The notes under the pieces were generated by a model, which saw only the letters and a list, made by a program, of their open reading frames with translations, was not told the DNA's origin and did not search any database. A program made the position numbers and the translations under genes. 64,000 nucleotides of DNA from a virus: IMG/VR virus record IMGVR_UViG_3300021197_001203, positions 32,001 to 96,000 of that record; one strand, 5' to 3'. This document shows, one piece after another, positions 8,094-47,090 of this stretch (the stretch's first letter is position 1; each line of letters begins with the position of its first letter).

Positions 8094-9551
8094 TCATGAG
8101 GCAATCATCCTCGCATACCACGGCATTTGTTCTAATTCACTTGGAGGAACTACCCAGCGTGTCATGTCGCCTTCTCCACCCTGACCTCTAAATTGATGGA
8201 GATTGTTTTTGTTTGCTAAGTTCCTAGCCAAATTAGACCCTCTTTCAACCCCCTCGTACCCTTTGTCAGCGATAAATTGTTCCATAAAATTAGATGTGAC
8301 TCCGGGGACATTTGACACTACTAAAGATTCAGGCTTGATTGCTTTGCCCGCTGTTTTCTGACTCCCAGCTCTATTTACCTGAGCGTTCTGAAGCTTGTCG
8401 TGTCGAGCCATCAATATACTCAGGGGCAAACCACGCTCATTTATTGCATCTATAACTGGTTTTGTTGCGCTATTGTAAGTAAATGTGGGTGTCCCCTGTT
8501 CAGCCAACTCTTTGTGTTTGTCATAAACATCACCAGTCAATTCATCTGACCATACGTGCTGACCTTTTTCGCCTCCGCCATAAGGGGGGTCTTGGCCTAC
8601 TATATCTTTGTCAGCTGCAATATCAGCCCTGTCATAAAAATCACTAAAGTCATCGTTTGTAAATGCCCAGTTTTCCATTATCTTAGACCACGGACTAACA
8701 TCCCACGGGTCCATCTCTAAGTTCCCTCCACCTGAGAAAAGATTCAGACCCTGAGCTGAAAAGATAGGACCTGTTTCAAGATCAGACCTACCAAACTTCC
8801 TGTCCCCGGTTTCGGCTTCAAGAAAATCAGCAGCTCTTTGTGCATAGGAGGGAGTCAATTTACCCCCAGCATAGGACTGTTTTGCCCCCGGTGCCGAATT
8901 AACAAGACCCCTACTATTTGTCCTCCAAATACTGTTATAGACTCCCCTACTTAACCCCAAAATATTTCTCATCAATTCCTGTTTTTCTTGGGTACTAAGA
9001 TTTCCTGAACGATAATCGGGTAATTTTTGATTTACCGTTGCTCTTAATTCATTGACCCTTTGGGGCATATATACCCCATCTTCAAATACAGAATTAGGAT
9101 TTAGTTTTCTAGCCTCTTCTATATCCGCAGCTGTAATTTCAGGTAGCGTGTGCAACAACTCAGAACCTTGATTCGGCGAAGAAAACAAACGAGGCTCATC
9201 ACCTACTCTATACAAAATATCTTTTGGATCGAATGCTAATGCTTCGGGGTTATCTCTCATCATTTCATTCATATCAACTAAAAGCTGGTCCTTATCATTA
9301 CCAAAATAACCCTCTTCAGCTCTAACCGCTAAGGGGACAGCCAAGCTACCCATAAACGGTTCAACCAATCTGCGGCCAGTGGTACCCCCGCCGCCTCTTC
9401 TTGACTTACCATACAGATAAGCATTGATCGCACGATACATCGGGTCGTCTTTGTTGCCAGCTACTTTGTAGGCTGGAGGCGCAGCTGTGTTATACTTCAG
9501 CGCGTTTAGAATCTGCTGCATAGCAGGATGGGATTTGCGAAGACTAGCCAT
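8094..9551 (-). CDS. Dam-like (D12 class) N6-adenine DNA methyltransferase
   Basis: YKVAGNK, LVEPFMGSLAV (motif I), ND, YN.IWRTNSRGLVN, DPPY (motif IV); start ATG 9551 after GGTGA. Confidence 0.8.
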   Translation of the reverse strand: MASLRKSHPAMQQILNALKYNTAAPPAYKVAGNKDDPMYRAINAYLYGKSRRGGGGTTGRRLVEPFMGSLAVPLAVRAEEGYFGNDKDQLLVDMNEMMRDNPEALAFDPKDILYRVGDEPRLFSSPNQGSELLHTLPEITAADIEEARKLNPNSVFEDGVYMPQRVNELRATVNQKLPDYRSGNLSTQEKQELMRNILGLSRGVYNSIWRTNSRGLVNSAPGAKQSYAGGKLTPSYAQRAADFLEAETGDRKFGRSDLETGPIFSAQGLNLFSGGGNLEMDPWDVSPWSKIMENWAFTNDDFSDFYDRADIAADKDIVGQDPPYGGGEKGQHVWSDELTGDVYDKHKELAEQGTPTFTYNSATKPVIDAINERGLPLSILMARHDKLQNAQVNRAGSQKTAGKAIKPESLVVSNVPGVTSNFMEQFIADKGYEGVERGSNLARNLANKNNLHQFRGQGGEGDMTRWVVPPSELEQMPWYARMIAS

Positions 9552-9553
9552 GA

Positions 9554-10444
9554 TCACCACTGTGGTTTCCCATAGGGTTTTACCCATTTTTCACAAGTCG
9601 TACAATATTTGTCATTCCATTCCCCTCTTGCTAGATTTAGATTGCCATCGCAATATGGACAAGTTTTTTGCTGCCTTTTGGAAATTATGGAAAATGATTT
9701 ACGAAGTTTTCTTTTATTATCCATCATTTGATGGTATCTAGCCAAAGCGGGATGCCACTGCGCCCTTGCTAAAGGATTCGGGTTCGGCATCAAACGTCTA
9801 TCATCCACAGCTGCATTTATGCCCATTCTTGCTAAATGCTGGTCCTGTTCCAATTTCCTGTCTCGTTTTCCTGAAGAATCCGTTATAGGGTCAATCTCAC
9901 CCAAAGTCGCTGCATATTCCTCTTGGTAATCATCTAACCTCTCTTCTTGAGATATTCCCGAAGAAGATAATGCCTGATGTATTGCCTCATGAGAAGCTAT
10001 CTCATTCATCCGGCTACCCCAACTAATGTCCTCATCCTCAGTCAAATCTCGGTCTAAGTCATCAATATTTTCCATTCCTAATATCTGAGCTAATACCTTT
10101 TCAGGATGGTTTCTAGCTGAATAAGGGCCTCTCCACTTGAGGGGGGCATAATTATCGCCACGCTCATTTGTCGCAATTCCGGTTTCTTTTAACCGTCTAA
10201 GCGGGCCAGCACTTGTTGTTTGACCTAAAGCACCCCCATGAGGTGCCTCTTCGCCCCAATCATCTAAGTAATCAGAAGTCCCTATTCTTGATTCAAGTTC
10301 TTCTTCTGAAGGGTCTCTTGTTGACGTTTCCCAATTGCTAGTCGTCAACGTGCTGGGTGCAGGAAAGCCAAATCTTGTCGGTGTTCTAGGATATGAAATC
10401 CTTGCCTTTACCAACTCCCAAGAGCTATCAAAGGCATCCGCCAT
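9554..10444 (-). CDS. leader-tagged zincin metallopeptidase-like protein with C-terminal Zn ribbon
   Basis: MADAFDSSWELVK; HEAIH..EEY; CPYC..CTTC. Confidence 0.65.
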   Translation of the reverse strand: MADAFDSSWELVKARISYPRTPTRFGFPAPSTLTTSNWETSTRDPSEEELESRIGTSDYLDDWGEEAPHGGALGQTTSAGPLRRLKETGIATNERGDNYAPLKWRGPYSARNHPEKVLAQILGMENIDDLDRDLTEDEDISWGSRMNEIASHEAIHQALSSSGISQEERLDDYQEEYAATLGEIDPITDSSGKRDRKLEQDQHLARMGINAAVDDRRLMPNPNPLARAQWHPALARYHQMMDNKRKLRKSFSIISKRQQKTCPYCDGNLNLARGEWNDKYCTTCEKWVKPYGKPQW

Positions 10445-43797: not shown

Positions 43798-44508
43798 ATG
43801 TTAGGAAACAGATTAGCAACATTTATGCAAACAGAAAAGATAATCTCATTTAGAGTTTTTAGCTCATATGATGATGACAAGGATTACACCGACCTTGATA
43901 AGTTTCATATTGATGCTGCTGTTTTCTTCGATGGCAGAACATTCTATGTATTCACTGATGTTGTGAATGAATTAATACATAAGGGGTATAAAACTCAAGT
44001 CAGATCAAGAAAAGAAATGGGTGCTTGGATAAAAGCTTTGGATCATGAAACTACATTAGTAGGTTTTAATTCTAACAAGCTACAATACCAGCTACTACTC
44101 AAAGCATACGATATACAATTCAAAACAATTGACTTGATGGATTCAATAGGACTCGCTGCTGCCTCTTACTATGACACTTCTAAACCACGCTTTACACTTA
44201 GAGAATGTTCTCGGTGGAATAGTGTCAAACAAAGTATATTGCCTCACTACACTTGGATGTTCACTACAATTGAATTGTTCGATGAATGGTATAGTGAAAG
44301 ATTTCGTAGTGTTGCTAAGAATCTAGCAGCTGAATGCGAAATGATAGCAAAGCTAGCACACCGTATCAGGAAGAGAAAACAAGTACGCTGGCTAGATAGG
44401 GTGTCAGGAAAAGGTGTTGCGATACCTATGGACTTCTATGGTCAAATCATACCTAGAGGTTTTTTCAAAGGGGCTAAAGATGACCCATCTCTTGAAGGTA
44501 GCGAATAG
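43798..44508 (+). CDS. degenerate DnaQ/RNase-H-like exonuclease-fold protein
   Basis: LVGFN..LL, IDLM, RFTL pattern; catalytic acidic residues not evident. Confidence 0.5.
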   Translation: MLGNRLATFMQTEKIISFRVFSSYDDDKDYTDLDKFHIDAAVFFDGRTFYVFTDVVNELIHKGYKTQVRSRKEMGAWIKALDHETTLVGFNSNKLQYQLLLKAYDIQFKTIDLMDSIGLAAASYYDTSKPRFTLRECSRWNSVKQSILPHYTWMFTTIELFDEWYSERFRSVAKNLAAECEMIAKLAHRIRKRKQVRWLDRVSGKGVAIPMDFYGQIIPRGFFKGAKDDPSLEGSE

Positions 44509-46258
44509 TATCAGGATGCACGATGTTGCTTAATTGATCGATAGTAGTCACGCCACCTTTGTCTAAGAATCGTTGCACGTTATGGTTAGGGTTTTCTAAA
44601 TGGAACGCTGTTTCCGGTTGCACAGGAGGTAATGCCCCCAGTGCTTCTTCAGTAGCCCTACCAAAGTCTGTACCCATTTGGAACGGTATAATTGATTTAG
44701 CGTGATATGCGGGTACTGATACTTTTTTCCCAGTGATTGGATTAATGTAGCTGAAACCTCTTGTTTGTTGTGTACCACGGTTTGACCCTTTAGGTGCAAA
44801 GGCATATCCAGCACCCGAAAGTATGCTGCCCATCGTCCTTACTTTTCCTTCACGATTCCCAAATTGAAAGCTATCCAATAATGCGTCTCTAGGTTGTCTA
44901 GTTAATGAATTACTTTTCATGCCTTTTTTTGAAAACTTTCTCATACCCTCTAATAATATTTCATCTAAGAAAGCTCTAGGCACAGGAACAGATGAACTTC
45001 TAAGTTGAGGGACGCTAGAGAAATCACTGTATTTTGCTTTAGTATTAAACAACACGTCTTTTCTAGGGTCTTTAGATATTTGTCCTATTCTTGGTCTAGG
45101 CACCCACCCTTTAGGAAACCTACCAAAAAAATCTGTTCTCTTTAACGGTGGAAGATTCGCAGCACCATACCTCAATTGTTCACCTGTATTCCCTGCATAT
45201 TTTATTGATGTCTCTAAGGGGTCTAAACCAGTCCCAGTAATAGGTGATCGATTTTGGGCTATACCGAAGAGAGAGGCTACTGGGTCAGAATAAGATGCGT
45301 GATTGACCGAAGCAAAATCAGGTAATATTTTACTGTATGTCATCGGCATAAATCTAGCCATCCCCGTAGGGTTTTCAAGAATACTAAACATATCGGGATT
45401 ACGGCGTGTCATCTCTTCAACTAATTTGAAAGTATCACGGAATAATTTTGCAGTTCCTTTATTAGACCCTCCAAAGTTTTTCTTTTTACCAGTAATAGGG
45501 TCGGTCCTCCAATCAGGCATTTTTGGTTTCCAATTACCAGCTGGATTTTCATCAGTCGATTCTCCCATCCACGCTGGGGCTTCATTTGTAGTGCCTCTAG
45601 CCTCTAGTGCTTCTCTTTTCCCTTCTTTATTATATCCCTCCGGTTCGTGCCATTTACTACCTACGGCAGCAACACTCATATCAACACAGGTAGGACTACC
45701 GAATAACACATCAGGCATACGACCACCAAAATGATCTTCGATTTCATTTACAGATAAGTCCTGTATATCAGATAAGAACGTAGGGGTTATACCCATTTGC
45801 TTACTGTCAGGGCCACCCGTTTTACCCCAATCAGACGTTGCCCCTGTATGTCCTCTTCGATACATATCAGAACCCCAGCCACCCGGCAAAACCTTTTCTC
45901 CACCTACTCCTGAAAACAATTCCATTGACATAAGTTCCTTTTGTTTAGGGGACATATTAGGACGCTCAGGTGCTAACACTGCTACACTCAATTCTTCTTC
46001 AGATGCTTTCGCAATATGTTTGCGGCTACCTCCCGCGCCCAGCTGCCTACGCATTGTAGGTCTAACATTACCCCTTGATTTGTTTCTTGAGTATCTTCTT
46101 TGAGTCTTTGCTCGTTTATTCTTACGGCTCTTATTCCAAGCTCTAGCTTTAGCTTGTCTCTCAGCTCGGCCACTTATTGTATTGCGTGAATAACCAGTGA
46201 ACTTACCCTTGTCCTCATTCTTGGTCATCTCCCAAGCCTCATCAAAAGGATCAGTCAC
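44474..46258 (-). CDS. leader-tagged C5-cytosine DNA methyltransferase-like protein with a basic N-terminal module
   Basis: MTDPFDEAWEMTK; ELFSGVGG (I), DIQD, GSPTC..MS (IV), ILENP (VI), KRT (VIII), KSIIP. Confidence 0.75.
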   Translation of the reverse strand: MTDPFDEAWEMTKNEDKGKFTGYSRNTISGRAERQAKARAWNKSRKNKRAKTQRRYSRNKSRGNVRPTMRRQLGAGGSRKHIAKASEEELSVAVLAPERPNMSPKQKELMSMELFSGVGGEKVLPGGWGSDMYRRGHTGATSDWGKTGGPDSKQMGITPTFLSDIQDLSVNEIEDHFGGRMPDVLFGSPTCVDMSVAAVGSKWHEPEGYNKEGKREALEARGTTNEAPAWMGESTDENPAGNWKPKMPDWRTDPITGKKKNFGGSNKGTAKLFRDTFKLVEEMTRRNPDMFSILENPTGMARFMPMTYSKILPDFASVNHASYSDPVASLFGIAQNRSPITGTGLDPLETSIKYAGNTGEQLRYGAANLPPLKRTDFFGRFPKGWVPRPRIGQISKDPRKDVLFNTKAKYSDFSSVPQLRSSSVPVPRAFLDEILLEGMRKFSKKGMKSNSLTRQPRDALLDSFQFGNREGKVRTMGSILSGAGYAFAPKGSNRGTQQTRGFSYINPITGKKVSVPAYHAKSIIPFQMGTDFGRATEEALGALPPVQPETAFHLENPNHNVQRFLDKGGVTTIDQLSNIVHPDTIRYLQEMGHL

Positions 46259-46896
46259 TGGACATCACCTACATTTAACATCAATTCAGGGTCAATGTCT
46301 AGCAGCTGTTCTTGATCGTACTGCCCTCTTAAGGGCATACCTTGTAAAATAAGCTGTCTTTGCATATCAGGGAAGTAATTTGATGATAGTTCAATAGGGA
46401 CAGGGACGTTTCCTAAGAGTTGAAGTATAGCCATCATCCTGTGTCTGCCTTCATGCCCCACAATATCTCTTGATTGAGACACTTTGCCCAAAGTAGTATC
46501 GTTATTTGATGCAATTCTTAGATTGGGGATATAAGTAGGCTTGCCCTCTTTCATTCCCTGTATAATATTTTCTGTACGAGGGTTTTTTTGTTTCTTCTTC
46601 TTATCCCACCACATATAGTCCTGTAATACGCTGCCGTACATTTGTTCACCTTTATGATTCCCTTTTATTGGAGAGGTGAGCCTGAGATAGTCCTGTGGCT
46701 TCATCATGGTCTTAGTATGGTAGCTTCCAAAAACCGGACTCCCCCCCATCGGATAATAATTCGTTTCTCCATCTATGCCGGGTTCTCGCCAGCTTCTGCC
46801 CTTGTCGTTTTCTTCTTTATCCCAAAACTCCGTAGGGCCGACTTTGTATGTAGCCATTTTGACTAATGCCCAACCATGTTGAAAGGCATCGCTCAT
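46255..46896 (-). CDS. leader-tagged ParB/Srx-like protein
   Basis: True start ATG 46896 (MSDAFQHGWALVK); MKPQDYLRL; P.L; GHEGRHRMMA..VPI. Confidence 0.65.
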   Translation of the reverse strand: MSDAFQHGWALVKMATYKVGPTEFWDKEENDKGRSWREPGIDGETNYYPMGGSPVFGSYHTKTMMKPQDYLRLTSPIKGNHKGEQMYGSVLQDYMWWDKKKKQKNPRTENIIQGMKEGKPTYIPNLRIASNNDTTLGKVSQSRDIVGHEGRHRMMAILQLLGNVPVPIELSSNYFPDMQRQLILQGMPLRGQYDQEQLLDIDPELMLNVGDVQ

Positions 46897-47090
46897 GTAT
46901 GCGCCTTTGTTTTCAATCCTTTTTTGAGTTTGGGGTTTATTTTTTTCCACACCGCATCACAAATAGGACATTCCCATAAGAAAATCCGGTCTCTCGATCC
47001 TGCATAAAATCCGTTTATACGGATAGCCAATACTCGATTAGAACACTCAGGGCAGTCTTGACTTATCTTATCCTGATAGTGATTGACCAT
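46893..47090 (-). CDS. Zn-ribbon protein
   Basis: CPEC..WECPIC. Confidence 0.7.
   Translation of the reverse strand: MVNHYQDKISQDCPECSNRVLAIRINGFYAGSRDRIFLWECPICDAVWKKINPKLKKGLKTKAHT

What the first reader, a model, noticed from the sequence alone, without database searches (positions are those of the whole stretch)
44474..46258. Leader-tagged cytosine methyltransferase at the end of the tail operon
The same leader appears 31 kb from the main array, followed by a ~65-aa Arg/Lys-rich segment ending HIAKA and then a C5-MTase with motifs I, IV, VI and VIII plus large insertions. A late-expressed, tagged MTase suggests packaging and co-injection to protect incoming DNA. It also shows that the tag is not just a local tandem-duplication artefact.
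Basis: partly seen in the sequence, partly recalled or inferred. Interest (0 to 1): 0.7.

Follow-up and report, generated by a model that had tools for sequence, protein, structure and literature searches.

The report
Cytosine methyltransferase fused to viral basic protein
In a marine archaeal virus, the last gene of the late structural block joins a small, very basic protein found in all related viruses to a divergent DNA cytosine methyltransferase, and a near-identical relative carries an adenine methyltransferase at the same join, so the basic protein looks like a fixed carrier for exchangeable DNA-marking enzymes.

Summary
ORF 44474-46258 (-) is a 594-aa gene with three parts: the virus-wide F-D-x-A-W-x-x-V-K leader, a pI-12 basic segment, and a DNA C5-methyltransferase fold (VIA Z about 12 to DNMT3, DNMT1 and M.HhaI; hhalign to E. 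coli Dcm 95%, with motifs I-IV and the catalytic Cys aligned).

The basic segment is more than a linker. In the 35 related magrovirus loci that a search keyed on two peptides of this segment retrieved, it is always at the end of the same structural block. In most of them it is a stand-alone leader-tagged ORF of about 83-104 aa. In this genome the fused copy is the only copy.

The methyltransferase is accessory. In relatives it is fused, adjacent, on the opposite strand or absent. Two contigs with 92-96% identical flanks break homology exactly at the end of the arm: one carries the C5-like domain, the other a D12 adenine methyltransferase.

Best reading: an exchangeable anti-restriction methyltransferase cassette hitched to a core, probably DNA-binding, protein. 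Packaging and co-injection stay untested. The closest functional analogue is P1 DarB. Caveats are a Thr in place of the Pro of the Pro-Cys motif, a non-canonical motif VIII and no expression data.

The scan noted this same stretch before on the same genome (e1-5956135), and the leader has its own follow-up (e1-5956113).

The parts
44474..46258 (-). Whole ORF, 594 aa: leader + basic arm + C5-methyltransferase-like domain. The stop codon is at 44474-46476 minus 2000, i.e. 44474-44476.
46220..46258 (-). GTG start and shared leader (residues 1-13, T-D-P-F-D-E-A-W-E-M-T-K)
46004..46210 (-). Basic arm (residues 17-85). In most related viruses this is a stand-alone small basic protein. This is the only copy in this genome.
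44477..46003 (-). C5-cytosine DNA methyltransferase-like domain (residues 86-594), with a structured insert between motifs IV and VI, a variable target-recognition region and a helical C-terminal tail
45899..45922 (-). Motif I (E-L-F-S-G-V-G-G), SAM binding
45674..45700 (-). Motif IV (G-S-P-T-C-V-D-M-S). Cys191 aligns with the catalytic Cys of E. coli Dcm. The residue before it is Thr, not Pro.
45362..45385 (-). Motif VI (E-N-P), invariant in all 26 family members aligned
46255..46896 (-). Upstream leader-tagged 213-aa ORF with a G-H-E-G-R-H-R-M-A-A motif. Its stop overlaps the methyltransferase start. The ParB-like reading is unverified.
46893..47090 (-). 65-aa zinc-ribbon ORF, stop/start-coupled to both of its neighbours

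Best explanation
The gene encodes one late protein made of three modules.

(1) A 12-residue leader that about 19 proteins of this virus share.

(2) A 70-residue module of pI 12, called 'the arm' here. It is present in every related locus retrieved and is normally made as its own small protein.

(3) A divergent DNA cytosine-C5 methyltransferase that is probably active.

Inferred mechanism:
- The arm binds the viral DNA through its many Arg/Lys residues and goes wherever the leader sends it.
- The methyltransferase is an exchangeable anti-restriction cassette bolted onto that carrier, so the enzyme is held on viral DNA late in infection.
- If the leader is a capsid-targeting signal, the enzyme enters the capsid with the DNA and is delivered to the next host, as in phage P1 DarB.

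Shown: the three-module anatomy, the fold and motifs, the stand-alone arm in relatives, the swap of methyltransferase class at the arm boundary, and stop/start coupling to the late block.

Inferred: enzymatic activity on DNA, DNA binding by the arm, timing, packaging and injection.

Rough odds:
- C5-methyltransferase fold: 0.95
- active DNA methyltransferase: 0.7
- arm binds nucleic acid: 0.65
- protein is in the virion: 0.4-0.45
For: Fold:
- The AlphaFold model of residues 86-594 has pLDDT 78 and pTM 0.84.
- Foldseek hits in the PDB are all C5 DNA methyltransferases.
- VIA-align gives Z 11-12 with about 220 residues aligned, spanning model residues 16-460, against DNMT3A/B, DNMT1 and M.HhaI residues 10-325.
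- The top hits in the viral structure library are phage cytosine methyltransferases.

Sequence:
- PHROG 116 'DNA methyltransferase' scores E 8e-5.
- 7 of 26 family members hit PF00145, the best at 8e-9.
- hhalign of the family against E. coli Dcm gives 95% probability and E 3e-8, with motifs I-IV and the catalytic Cys aligned.
- Cys191 and E295-N296-P297 are invariant in all 26 relatives; a motif I Gly is also invariant, and K373 is nearly so.

Arm:
- It is present in 35 of 35 related loci, which were retrieved through two arm peptides. It always follows the giant protein, p113 and p388, and faces p236, p493 and ERCC4.
- In most loci it is a stand-alone ORF of about 83-104 aa.
- It shows 73-78% amino-acid identity over its 60-residue core, and 53-71% of the identical residues use different codons.
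- It is single-copy in this genome.

Cassette behaviour:
- L003 and L023 are 92-96% identical in DNA on both flanks, and homology stops at the end of the arm (residue 79). L003 carries the C5-like domain. L023 carries a D12 adenine methyltransferase (PF02086, E 7e-7, with a D-P-P-Y motif).
- Another relative (P0036) has a D12 methyltransferase at the N-terminus and leader plus arm at the C-terminus; P0035 has the same layout and a D-P-P-Y motif but no Pfam hit.
- Stand-alone C5-like relatives often start with the leader themselves.

Late block: GTGA, ATGA and TGATG stop/start overlaps link this gene back to p388. The genome encodes an S78 prohead protease, capsid protein, portal and terminase on the same strand.

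Precedent: P1 Dar proteins, including the roughly 2,000-aa DarB, are head-internal and are co-ejected with the DNA (PMC12810830).
Against: - Pfam PF00145 is below its gathering score for this protein (14.6-16 bits against 22).
- A profile search of PDB sequences found nothing.
- The Pro of the Pro-Cys dipeptide is Thr in this clade; the family consensus is P-P-C.
- Motif VIII is K-R-T-D rather than R-x-R, and the Arg is not conserved across the family.
- There is no evidence for virion location, cleavage, timing or methylation.
- A virus that methylates its progeny DNA in the cell does not need to inject the enzyme.
- The very high conservation of the arm suggests a specific partner, not just charge-driven DNA binding.
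- The leader also occurs inside proteins, between modules, in relatives. It is therefore not strictly an N-terminal address.
Confidence: 0.5

Rival explanations
1. This is an ordinary late orphan methyltransferase. It methylates progeny genomes in the cytoplasm before packaging and is never packaged. The arm only tethers it non-specifically to DNA. The leader serves another purpose, such as a docking helix for a virus factory, the viral thermosome or a processing protease.
For: The fold and motifs apply as above. Phage orphan methyltransferases acting late on progeny DNA are the common case (established knowledge: T4 Dam, P1 Dam). The virus encodes a group II chaperonin. The leader occurs internally between modules in relatives.
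Against: The only copy of a gene found in all 35 related loci is locked into this fusion, so the fusion must go wherever the arm normally works. The arm itself carries the leader in most relatives.
Confidence: 0.3
2. The domain is a catalytically dead methyltransferase fold, kept as a DNA-binding or structural module.
For: Thr replaces the Pro of the Pro-Cys motif, motif VIII is non-canonical, and there are large insertions. The Pfam score is below threshold.
Against: The catalytic Cys, E-N of motif VI, the motif I glycines and the acidic residues of motifs II and III stay invariant at 31-49% overall identity. The same slot is filled by a D12 enzyme with an intact D-P-P-Y motif in a near-identical virus, which argues that enzymatic methylation is what is selected.
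Confidence: 0.1
3. It methylates RNA (Dnmt2-like tRNA m5C) or transfers a group other than methyl (the carboxymethyl-SAM type).
For: Dnmt2 structures and a DNA C5-carboxymethyltransferase are among the fold hits.
Against: They score no better than the DNA enzymes. The exchange with a Dam-class DNA enzyme at the same junction points to DNA. No cofactor-synthesis gene was seen next to it.
Confidence: 0.05

Closest known systems
Prokaryotic and viral DNA cytosine-C5 methyltransferases (Pfam PF00145; M.HhaI, Dcm, DNMT3 catalytic domain)
   Same: Same fold, with Z about 12 over the whole catalytic domain. Motif I, the acidic residues of motifs II and III, the catalytic Cys of motif IV and E-N of motif VI are in place. 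A variable region sits where the target-recognition domain lies.
   Different: - It scores below the Pfam threshold.
- Motif IV reads P-T-C instead of P-P-C or P-C.
- Motif VI reads E-N-P instead of E-N-V.
- Motif VIII is K-R-T-D.
- A conserved insert of about 65 extra residues lies between motifs IV and VI.
- The N-terminus carries the leader and basic arm, and the C-terminus a 40-residue helical tail.
Phage P1 DarB and the Dar system (head-internal anti-restriction proteins co-ejected with the DNA)
   Same: The idea is the same: a methyltransferase-bearing protein travels with the DNA. Dar proteins present positively charged faces to the DNA, and DarA loses an N-terminal piece by proteolysis (PMC12810830).
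   Different: There is no sequence similarity (tblastn against 50,697 phage records found nothing). DarB is about 2,000 aa; from memory it combines an adenine methyltransferase with a helicase. Packaging of the present protein is only inferred.
Capsid targeting sequence of phage T4 internal proteins (IPI-III, Alt)
   Same: A short shared N-terminal peptide sits on unrelated proteins, in a virus that encodes a prohead protease. The T4 internal proteins are small basic proteins packed with the DNA (PMC9026906).
   Different: The sequence is different. The leader also occurs inside proteins between modules. Neither cleavage nor packaging has been shown.

Membership tests
DNA cytosine-C5 methyltransferase (PF00145) | Class I methyltransferase fold with the C5-methyltransferase arrangement of catalytic and target-recognition domains | tested here: met
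   Model pLDDT 78. The listed PDB matches are all C5 methyltransferases, with Z 11-12, about 220 residues aligned and rmsd 3.4-5.
DNA cytosine-C5 methyltransferase (PF00145) | Motif I F-x-G-x-G for SAM binding, plus the acidic residues of motifs II and III | tested here: met
   Residues 113-120, D143 and D164 align to motifs I-III of Dcm.
DNA cytosine-C5 methyltransferase (PF00145) | Catalytic Cys of motif IV | tested here: met
   Cys191 is invariant in 26 relatives and aligns with the motif IV Cys of Dcm.
DNA cytosine-C5 methyltransferase (PF00145) | Pro immediately before the catalytic Cys (the Pro-Cys dipeptide) | tested here: not met
   The window clade has P-T-C. The wider family consensus is P-P-C.
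DNA cytosine-C5 methyltransferase (PF00145) | Motif VI E-N-V, with the Glu that protonates N3 | tested here: met
   E295-N296 are invariant. The third residue is Pro.
DNA cytosine-C5 methyltransferase (PF00145) | Motif VIII R-x-R | tested here: inconclusive
   K373-R374-T-D lies at the expected place. Lys is nearly invariant; the Arg is not conserved in the family.
DNA cytosine-C5 methyltransferase (PF00145) | Score above the Pfam gathering threshold | tested here: not met
   14.6-16 bits against 22. 7 of 26 relatives match at E <= 0.01, the best at 8e-9.
DNA cytosine-C5 methyltransferase (PF00145) | SAM-dependent transfer of a methyl group to C5 of cytosine in DNA | not testable with these tools
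   This needs expression and methylome reading.
T4-type capsid-targeted cargo | Short shared N-terminal peptide on otherwise unrelated proteins | tested here: met
   16 copies in the window against 0.36 by chance; 18 in the genome.
T4-type capsid-targeted cargo | Removal of the peptide by the prohead protease, and presence of the cargo in virions | not testable with these tools
   An S78 prohead protease gene exists in the genome. No proteomic data are available.
P1 Dar-type packaged anti-restriction protein | Sequence relationship to DarB | tested here: not met
   No tblastn match in the phage collection.
ParB/Srx fold (neighbour ORF 46255-46896) | ParB N-terminal domain fold with a G-x-x-R-x-x-A box | tested here: inconclusive
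   A motif-like G-H-E-G-R-H-R-M-A-A is invariant. Nearest atlas clusters include ParB_N on only 18-26% of members. There is no Pfam hit, AlphaFold gave pLDDT 35, and hhalign to E. coli YbdM gave 0.4%.

The most novel reading that the evidence does not exclude
The arm is a virion-internal, DNA-bound carrier protein of magroviruses. Evolution plugs exchangeable DNA-modifying enzymes onto it: a C5-cytosine or an N6-adenine methyltransferase, at either end. The enzyme is then loaded into the capsid with the genome and delivered to the next archaeal host. This would be a modular cargo-delivery system for anti-restriction enzymes with no described counterpart in archaeal viruses.
Probability: 0.3. 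Interest if true: 0.8.

Novelty: new variant of a known kind. Interest (0 to 1): 0.58.

Why it matters
Magroviruses infect some of the most abundant archaea of the surface ocean, and none has been cultured. How they cope with host restriction is therefore unknown.

This locus gives a concrete, testable handle: a conserved small basic protein of unknown function that repeatedly captures DNA methyltransferases of two unrelated classes.

If the fusion is packaged, it would extend the 'inject your own protection' strategy of phages P1 and T4 to archaeal viruses. It would also show a plug-in architecture for it.

If it is not packaged, it is still a natural example of tethering a DNA-modifying enzyme to DNA through a short basic arm. 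It also marks the arm boundary as a recombination hotspot for anti-defence cassettes.

Tried and rejected
I used IMG/VR loci instead.
- A profile search of PDB sequences found nothing meaningful, either with the whole family or with the arm alone.
- The protein atlas gave no usable hit for the arm. Pfam also found nothing for the arm.
- tblastn against deposited phage genomes found nothing.
- A genome-level PF00145 search found nothing, which fits a remote family.
- The ParB-like neighbour could not be confirmed: AlphaFold gave pLDDT 35, and hhalign to E. coli YbdM gave no signal.
- I considered that the arm's conservation reflects a DNA or RNA element rather than a protein. I rejected this because more than half of the identical residues use different codons.
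- I considered that the fusion is an assembly or frameshift artefact. I rejected this because seven protein clusters (P0001-P0007, drawn from several public sources) and L001 have the same fused architecture with a conserved junction.
- Two magrovirus papers mention no methyltransferase, N-terminal motif or ParB; one was also searched for 'basic protein'.
- The target site cannot be derived from sequence. AGCT, TCGA, ATAT and ACGT are the only four-base palindromes not clearly avoided in the genome, which is only a weak hint.

Full report
**Context**

The window is bases 32001-96000 of a 108,315-bp IMG/VR virus record that CheckV rates complete. It encodes:
- a group II chaperonin, an ERCC4 nuclease, a UvrD-type helicase, a PAPS-reductase-like protein and a PD-(D/E)XK nuclease on the plus strand;
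- an HK97-type capsid protein, an S78 prohead protease, a portal, a large terminase and tail-like proteins on the minus strand.

This is the gene set of the magroviruses of Marine Group II archaea (PMC5434244).

**The observation**

ORF 44474-46258 (-) is real and 594 aa long. Its GTG start overlaps the TGA of the upstream ORF (GTGA), behind a GGTGAT box. That upstream ORF is in turn coupled by ATGA to a 65-aa zinc-ribbon ORF, and this by TGATG to p388. The gene is thus the last of a tightly coupled run that closes the long minus-strand late block. Its last 35 nt overlap the 3' end of the convergent gene 43798-44508.

Residues 2-13 carry the shared leader. A strict pattern finds it 16 times in the window, always on the minus strand and inside ORFs, against 0.36 expected from shuffles. 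It finds 18 copies in the genome, and there is a looser one at genome 21416-23188. Codons differ between copies.

**The methyltransferase**

Direct sequence evidence is weak:
- PF00145 scores E 0.02, below its threshold.
- PHROG 116 scores E 8e-5.
- The PDB sequence search finds nothing.

An exhaustive profile search of 1.84 billion representatives found only 87 relatives. I aligned 26 proteins that carry the methyltransferase-like domain (A2). Their consensus shows a canonical motif I, an S-P-P-C-x-x-F-S motif IV and E-N-P. Seven of them match PF00145, the best at 8e-9. hhalign of A2 against E. coli Dcm gives 95% probability and E 3e-8, with motifs I, II, III and IV aligned residue for residue and Cys191 on the Dcm motif IV Cys.

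The AlphaFold model of residues 86-594 (pLDDT 78, pTM 0.84) finds C5 DNA methyltransferases and nothing else among its top matches:
- Foldseek on the PDB;
- VIA-align at Z 11-12 with about 220 aligned residues, spanning model residues 16-460, against DNMT3A/B, DNMT1 and nearly all of M.HhaI;
- phage cytosine methyltransferases in the viral library.

The fold assignment is therefore secure.

Departures from the canon:
- The window clade has P-T-C where the family has P-P-C.
- Motif VI ends in Pro.
- Motif VIII is K-R-T-D, with only the Lys conserved.
- 104 residues separate the catalytic Cys from the motif VI Glu. The spacing I recall for M.HhaI is about 38, from memory. The extra stretch is well modelled and holds conserved residues (W203, R221, P228).
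- The last 40 residues form a small helical tail.

The catalytic Cys, E-N and a motif I Gly stay invariant down to 22% identity. I read this as selection for catalysis, but activity is inferred.

**The basic segment is a gene of its own**

A scan of IMG/VR, keyed on two peptides of the basic segment, returned 35 loci. In most of them only residues 1-84 match, at 55-76% identity. There the match is a complete small ORF of about 83-104 aa that stops a few residues after the invariant L-G-A-G-G box.

Its place is fixed: giant protein, p113, p388, then the arm, facing the convergent p236, p493 and ERCC4 genes. Because the scan was keyed on arm peptides, '35 of 35' shows conserved position and not universality.

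Over its 60-residue core the arm keeps 73-78% identity, while 53-71% of the identical residues use different codons. This is protein-level purifying selection, as strong as on the best conserved neighbours. The arm has no detectable relative in Pfam, the PDB or the atlas.

In this genome the fused copy is the only one.

**The methyltransferase is an accessory cassette**
- It is fused behind the arm in the window clade and in L001, and in a second, divergent form in L003.
- It is a separate ORF right after the arm in L002 and L017.
- It is a separate opposite-strand ORF with its own leader-like start in L022, L027 and L030.
- It is absent near the arm in the remaining loci.
- Many stand-alone relatives from the representative search begin directly with the leader.

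The most telling pair is L003 and L023. Their DNA is 92-96% identical on both sides. Homology ends at nucleotide 10233, which is residue 79 and the end of the arm. It resumes after the gene. Between those points L003 has the C5-like domain, and L023 has a D12 N6-adenine methyltransferase with a D-P-P-Y motif (PF02086, E 7e-7).

Another relative (P0036) puts a D12 enzyme at the N-terminus, followed by a leader, an acidic Cys-containing module, a second leader and the arm. P0035 has the same layout and a D-P-P-Y motif, but no Pfam hit at E 0.01.

Two unrelated methyltransferase classes have thus been joined to the same arm, in both orders. This is hard to explain unless the pairing of arm and DNA methyltransferase is itself useful. 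It also argues that the substrate is DNA.

**Mechanism**

Shown: the anatomy, fold, motifs, synteny, cassette exchange and stop/start coupling to the late block.

Inferred:
- The arm binds DNA. It has pI 12, with 24 Lys/Arg in 72 residues.
- The enzyme methylates cytosines in viral DNA to blunt host restriction. The genome shows very strong palindrome avoidance: many six-base palindromes are absent and GATC, GTAC, CATG and CGCG are depleted, so restriction pressure is real.
- The leader decides where arm and enzyme go.

If the leader works like the T4 capsid targeting sequence (PMC9026906), the fusion would be packed with the DNA and could be co-ejected, like the P1 Dar proteins (PMC12810830). 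This virus does have a prohead protease.

The main rival is that the fusion acts only in the cell, as a DNA-tethered late methyltransferase. I cannot separate the two readings with sequence data. The extreme conservation of the arm hints at a specific partner beyond DNA. The internal leaders in relatives suggest that the leader may mark module boundaries, perhaps processing sites, and is not a strict N-terminal address.

**Neighbour**

ORF 46255-46896 carries the leader, as do all of its aligned homologues, and an invariant G-H-E-G-R-H-R-M-A-A box. A ParB-like reading is only hinted at by the atlas. Pfam, AlphaFold (pLDDT 35) and hhalign to YbdM gave nothing. This ORF had no match in any of the 35 related loci. 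The zinc-ribbon ORF was not searched there.

**Verdict**

This is a real, divergent member of the C5-methyltransferase superfamily in an unusual and informative architecture. The kind of gene is known: a viral orphan DNA methyltransferase. The carrier arm, the leader and the class swap at one junction are new. Earlier notes of this scan on the same genome had already flagged this stretch and the leader. My checks agree with them and add the stand-alone arm and the cassette exchange.

Noticed in passing
L003:9998-11539 and L023:9998-11479: Two IMG/VR contigs are 92-96% identical in their flanks and differ only in the domain behind the arm: C5-like in one, D12 adenine methyltransferase in the other. 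Homology breaks exactly at the end of the arm.
   Followed up: yes
P0036 and P0035 (representative-search proteins), L017:8807-10246: These are polyprotein-like ORFs in which the leader occurs inside the protein, in front of each module. P0036 runs D12 methyltransferase, leader, acidic Cys-containing module, leader, arm; P0035 has the same layout but no Pfam hit. L017, P0037 and P0039 run DUF5872, leader, arm. The leader may mark module boundaries or processing sites.
   Followed up: partly
window 46255-46896 (-) and 46893-47090 (-): A leader-tagged 213-aa protein with an invariant G-H-E-G-R-H-R-M-A-A box sits next to a 65-aa zinc-ribbon ORF, between p388 and the methyltransferase gene. The 213-aa protein had no match at this position in the 35 related loci. 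The ParB-like fold could not be confirmed.
   Followed up: partly
whole genome (G000), e.g. window 1-64000: Palindrome avoidance is very strong. ATGCAT, TTGCAA, TCTAGA, GATATC, TGCGCA, CGATCG, CTGCAG and GTTAAC have zero copies where 13-34 are expected. GATC, GTAC, CATG and CGCG are strongly depleted. AGCT, TCGA, ATAT and ACGT are not.
   Followed up: partly
window 8094-9587 (-); genome 100888-101463 (-), outside the window: The virus has at least two more methyltransferases. One is a 497-aa D12-class enzyme inside the leader array, without a clear leader. The other is a 191-aa protein matching PHROG 15480 'methyltransferase' among the tail-like genes.
   Followed up: no
window 44474-44508: The 3' ends of the methyltransferase gene and of the convergent gene 43798-44508 overlap by 35 nt.
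   Followed up: no
window 44477-44593 (-), residues 556-594: A conserved three-helix C-terminal tail follows the methyltransferase domain and has no assigned fold. It was barely covered by the fold searches.
   Followed up: no
genome 21416-23188 (-), outside the window: A 590-aa ORF next to the terminase has a looser leader (I-F-D-Q-A-W-D-L-A-K) about 14 residues from its start, which raises the count of tagged proteins to about 19.
   Followed up: no
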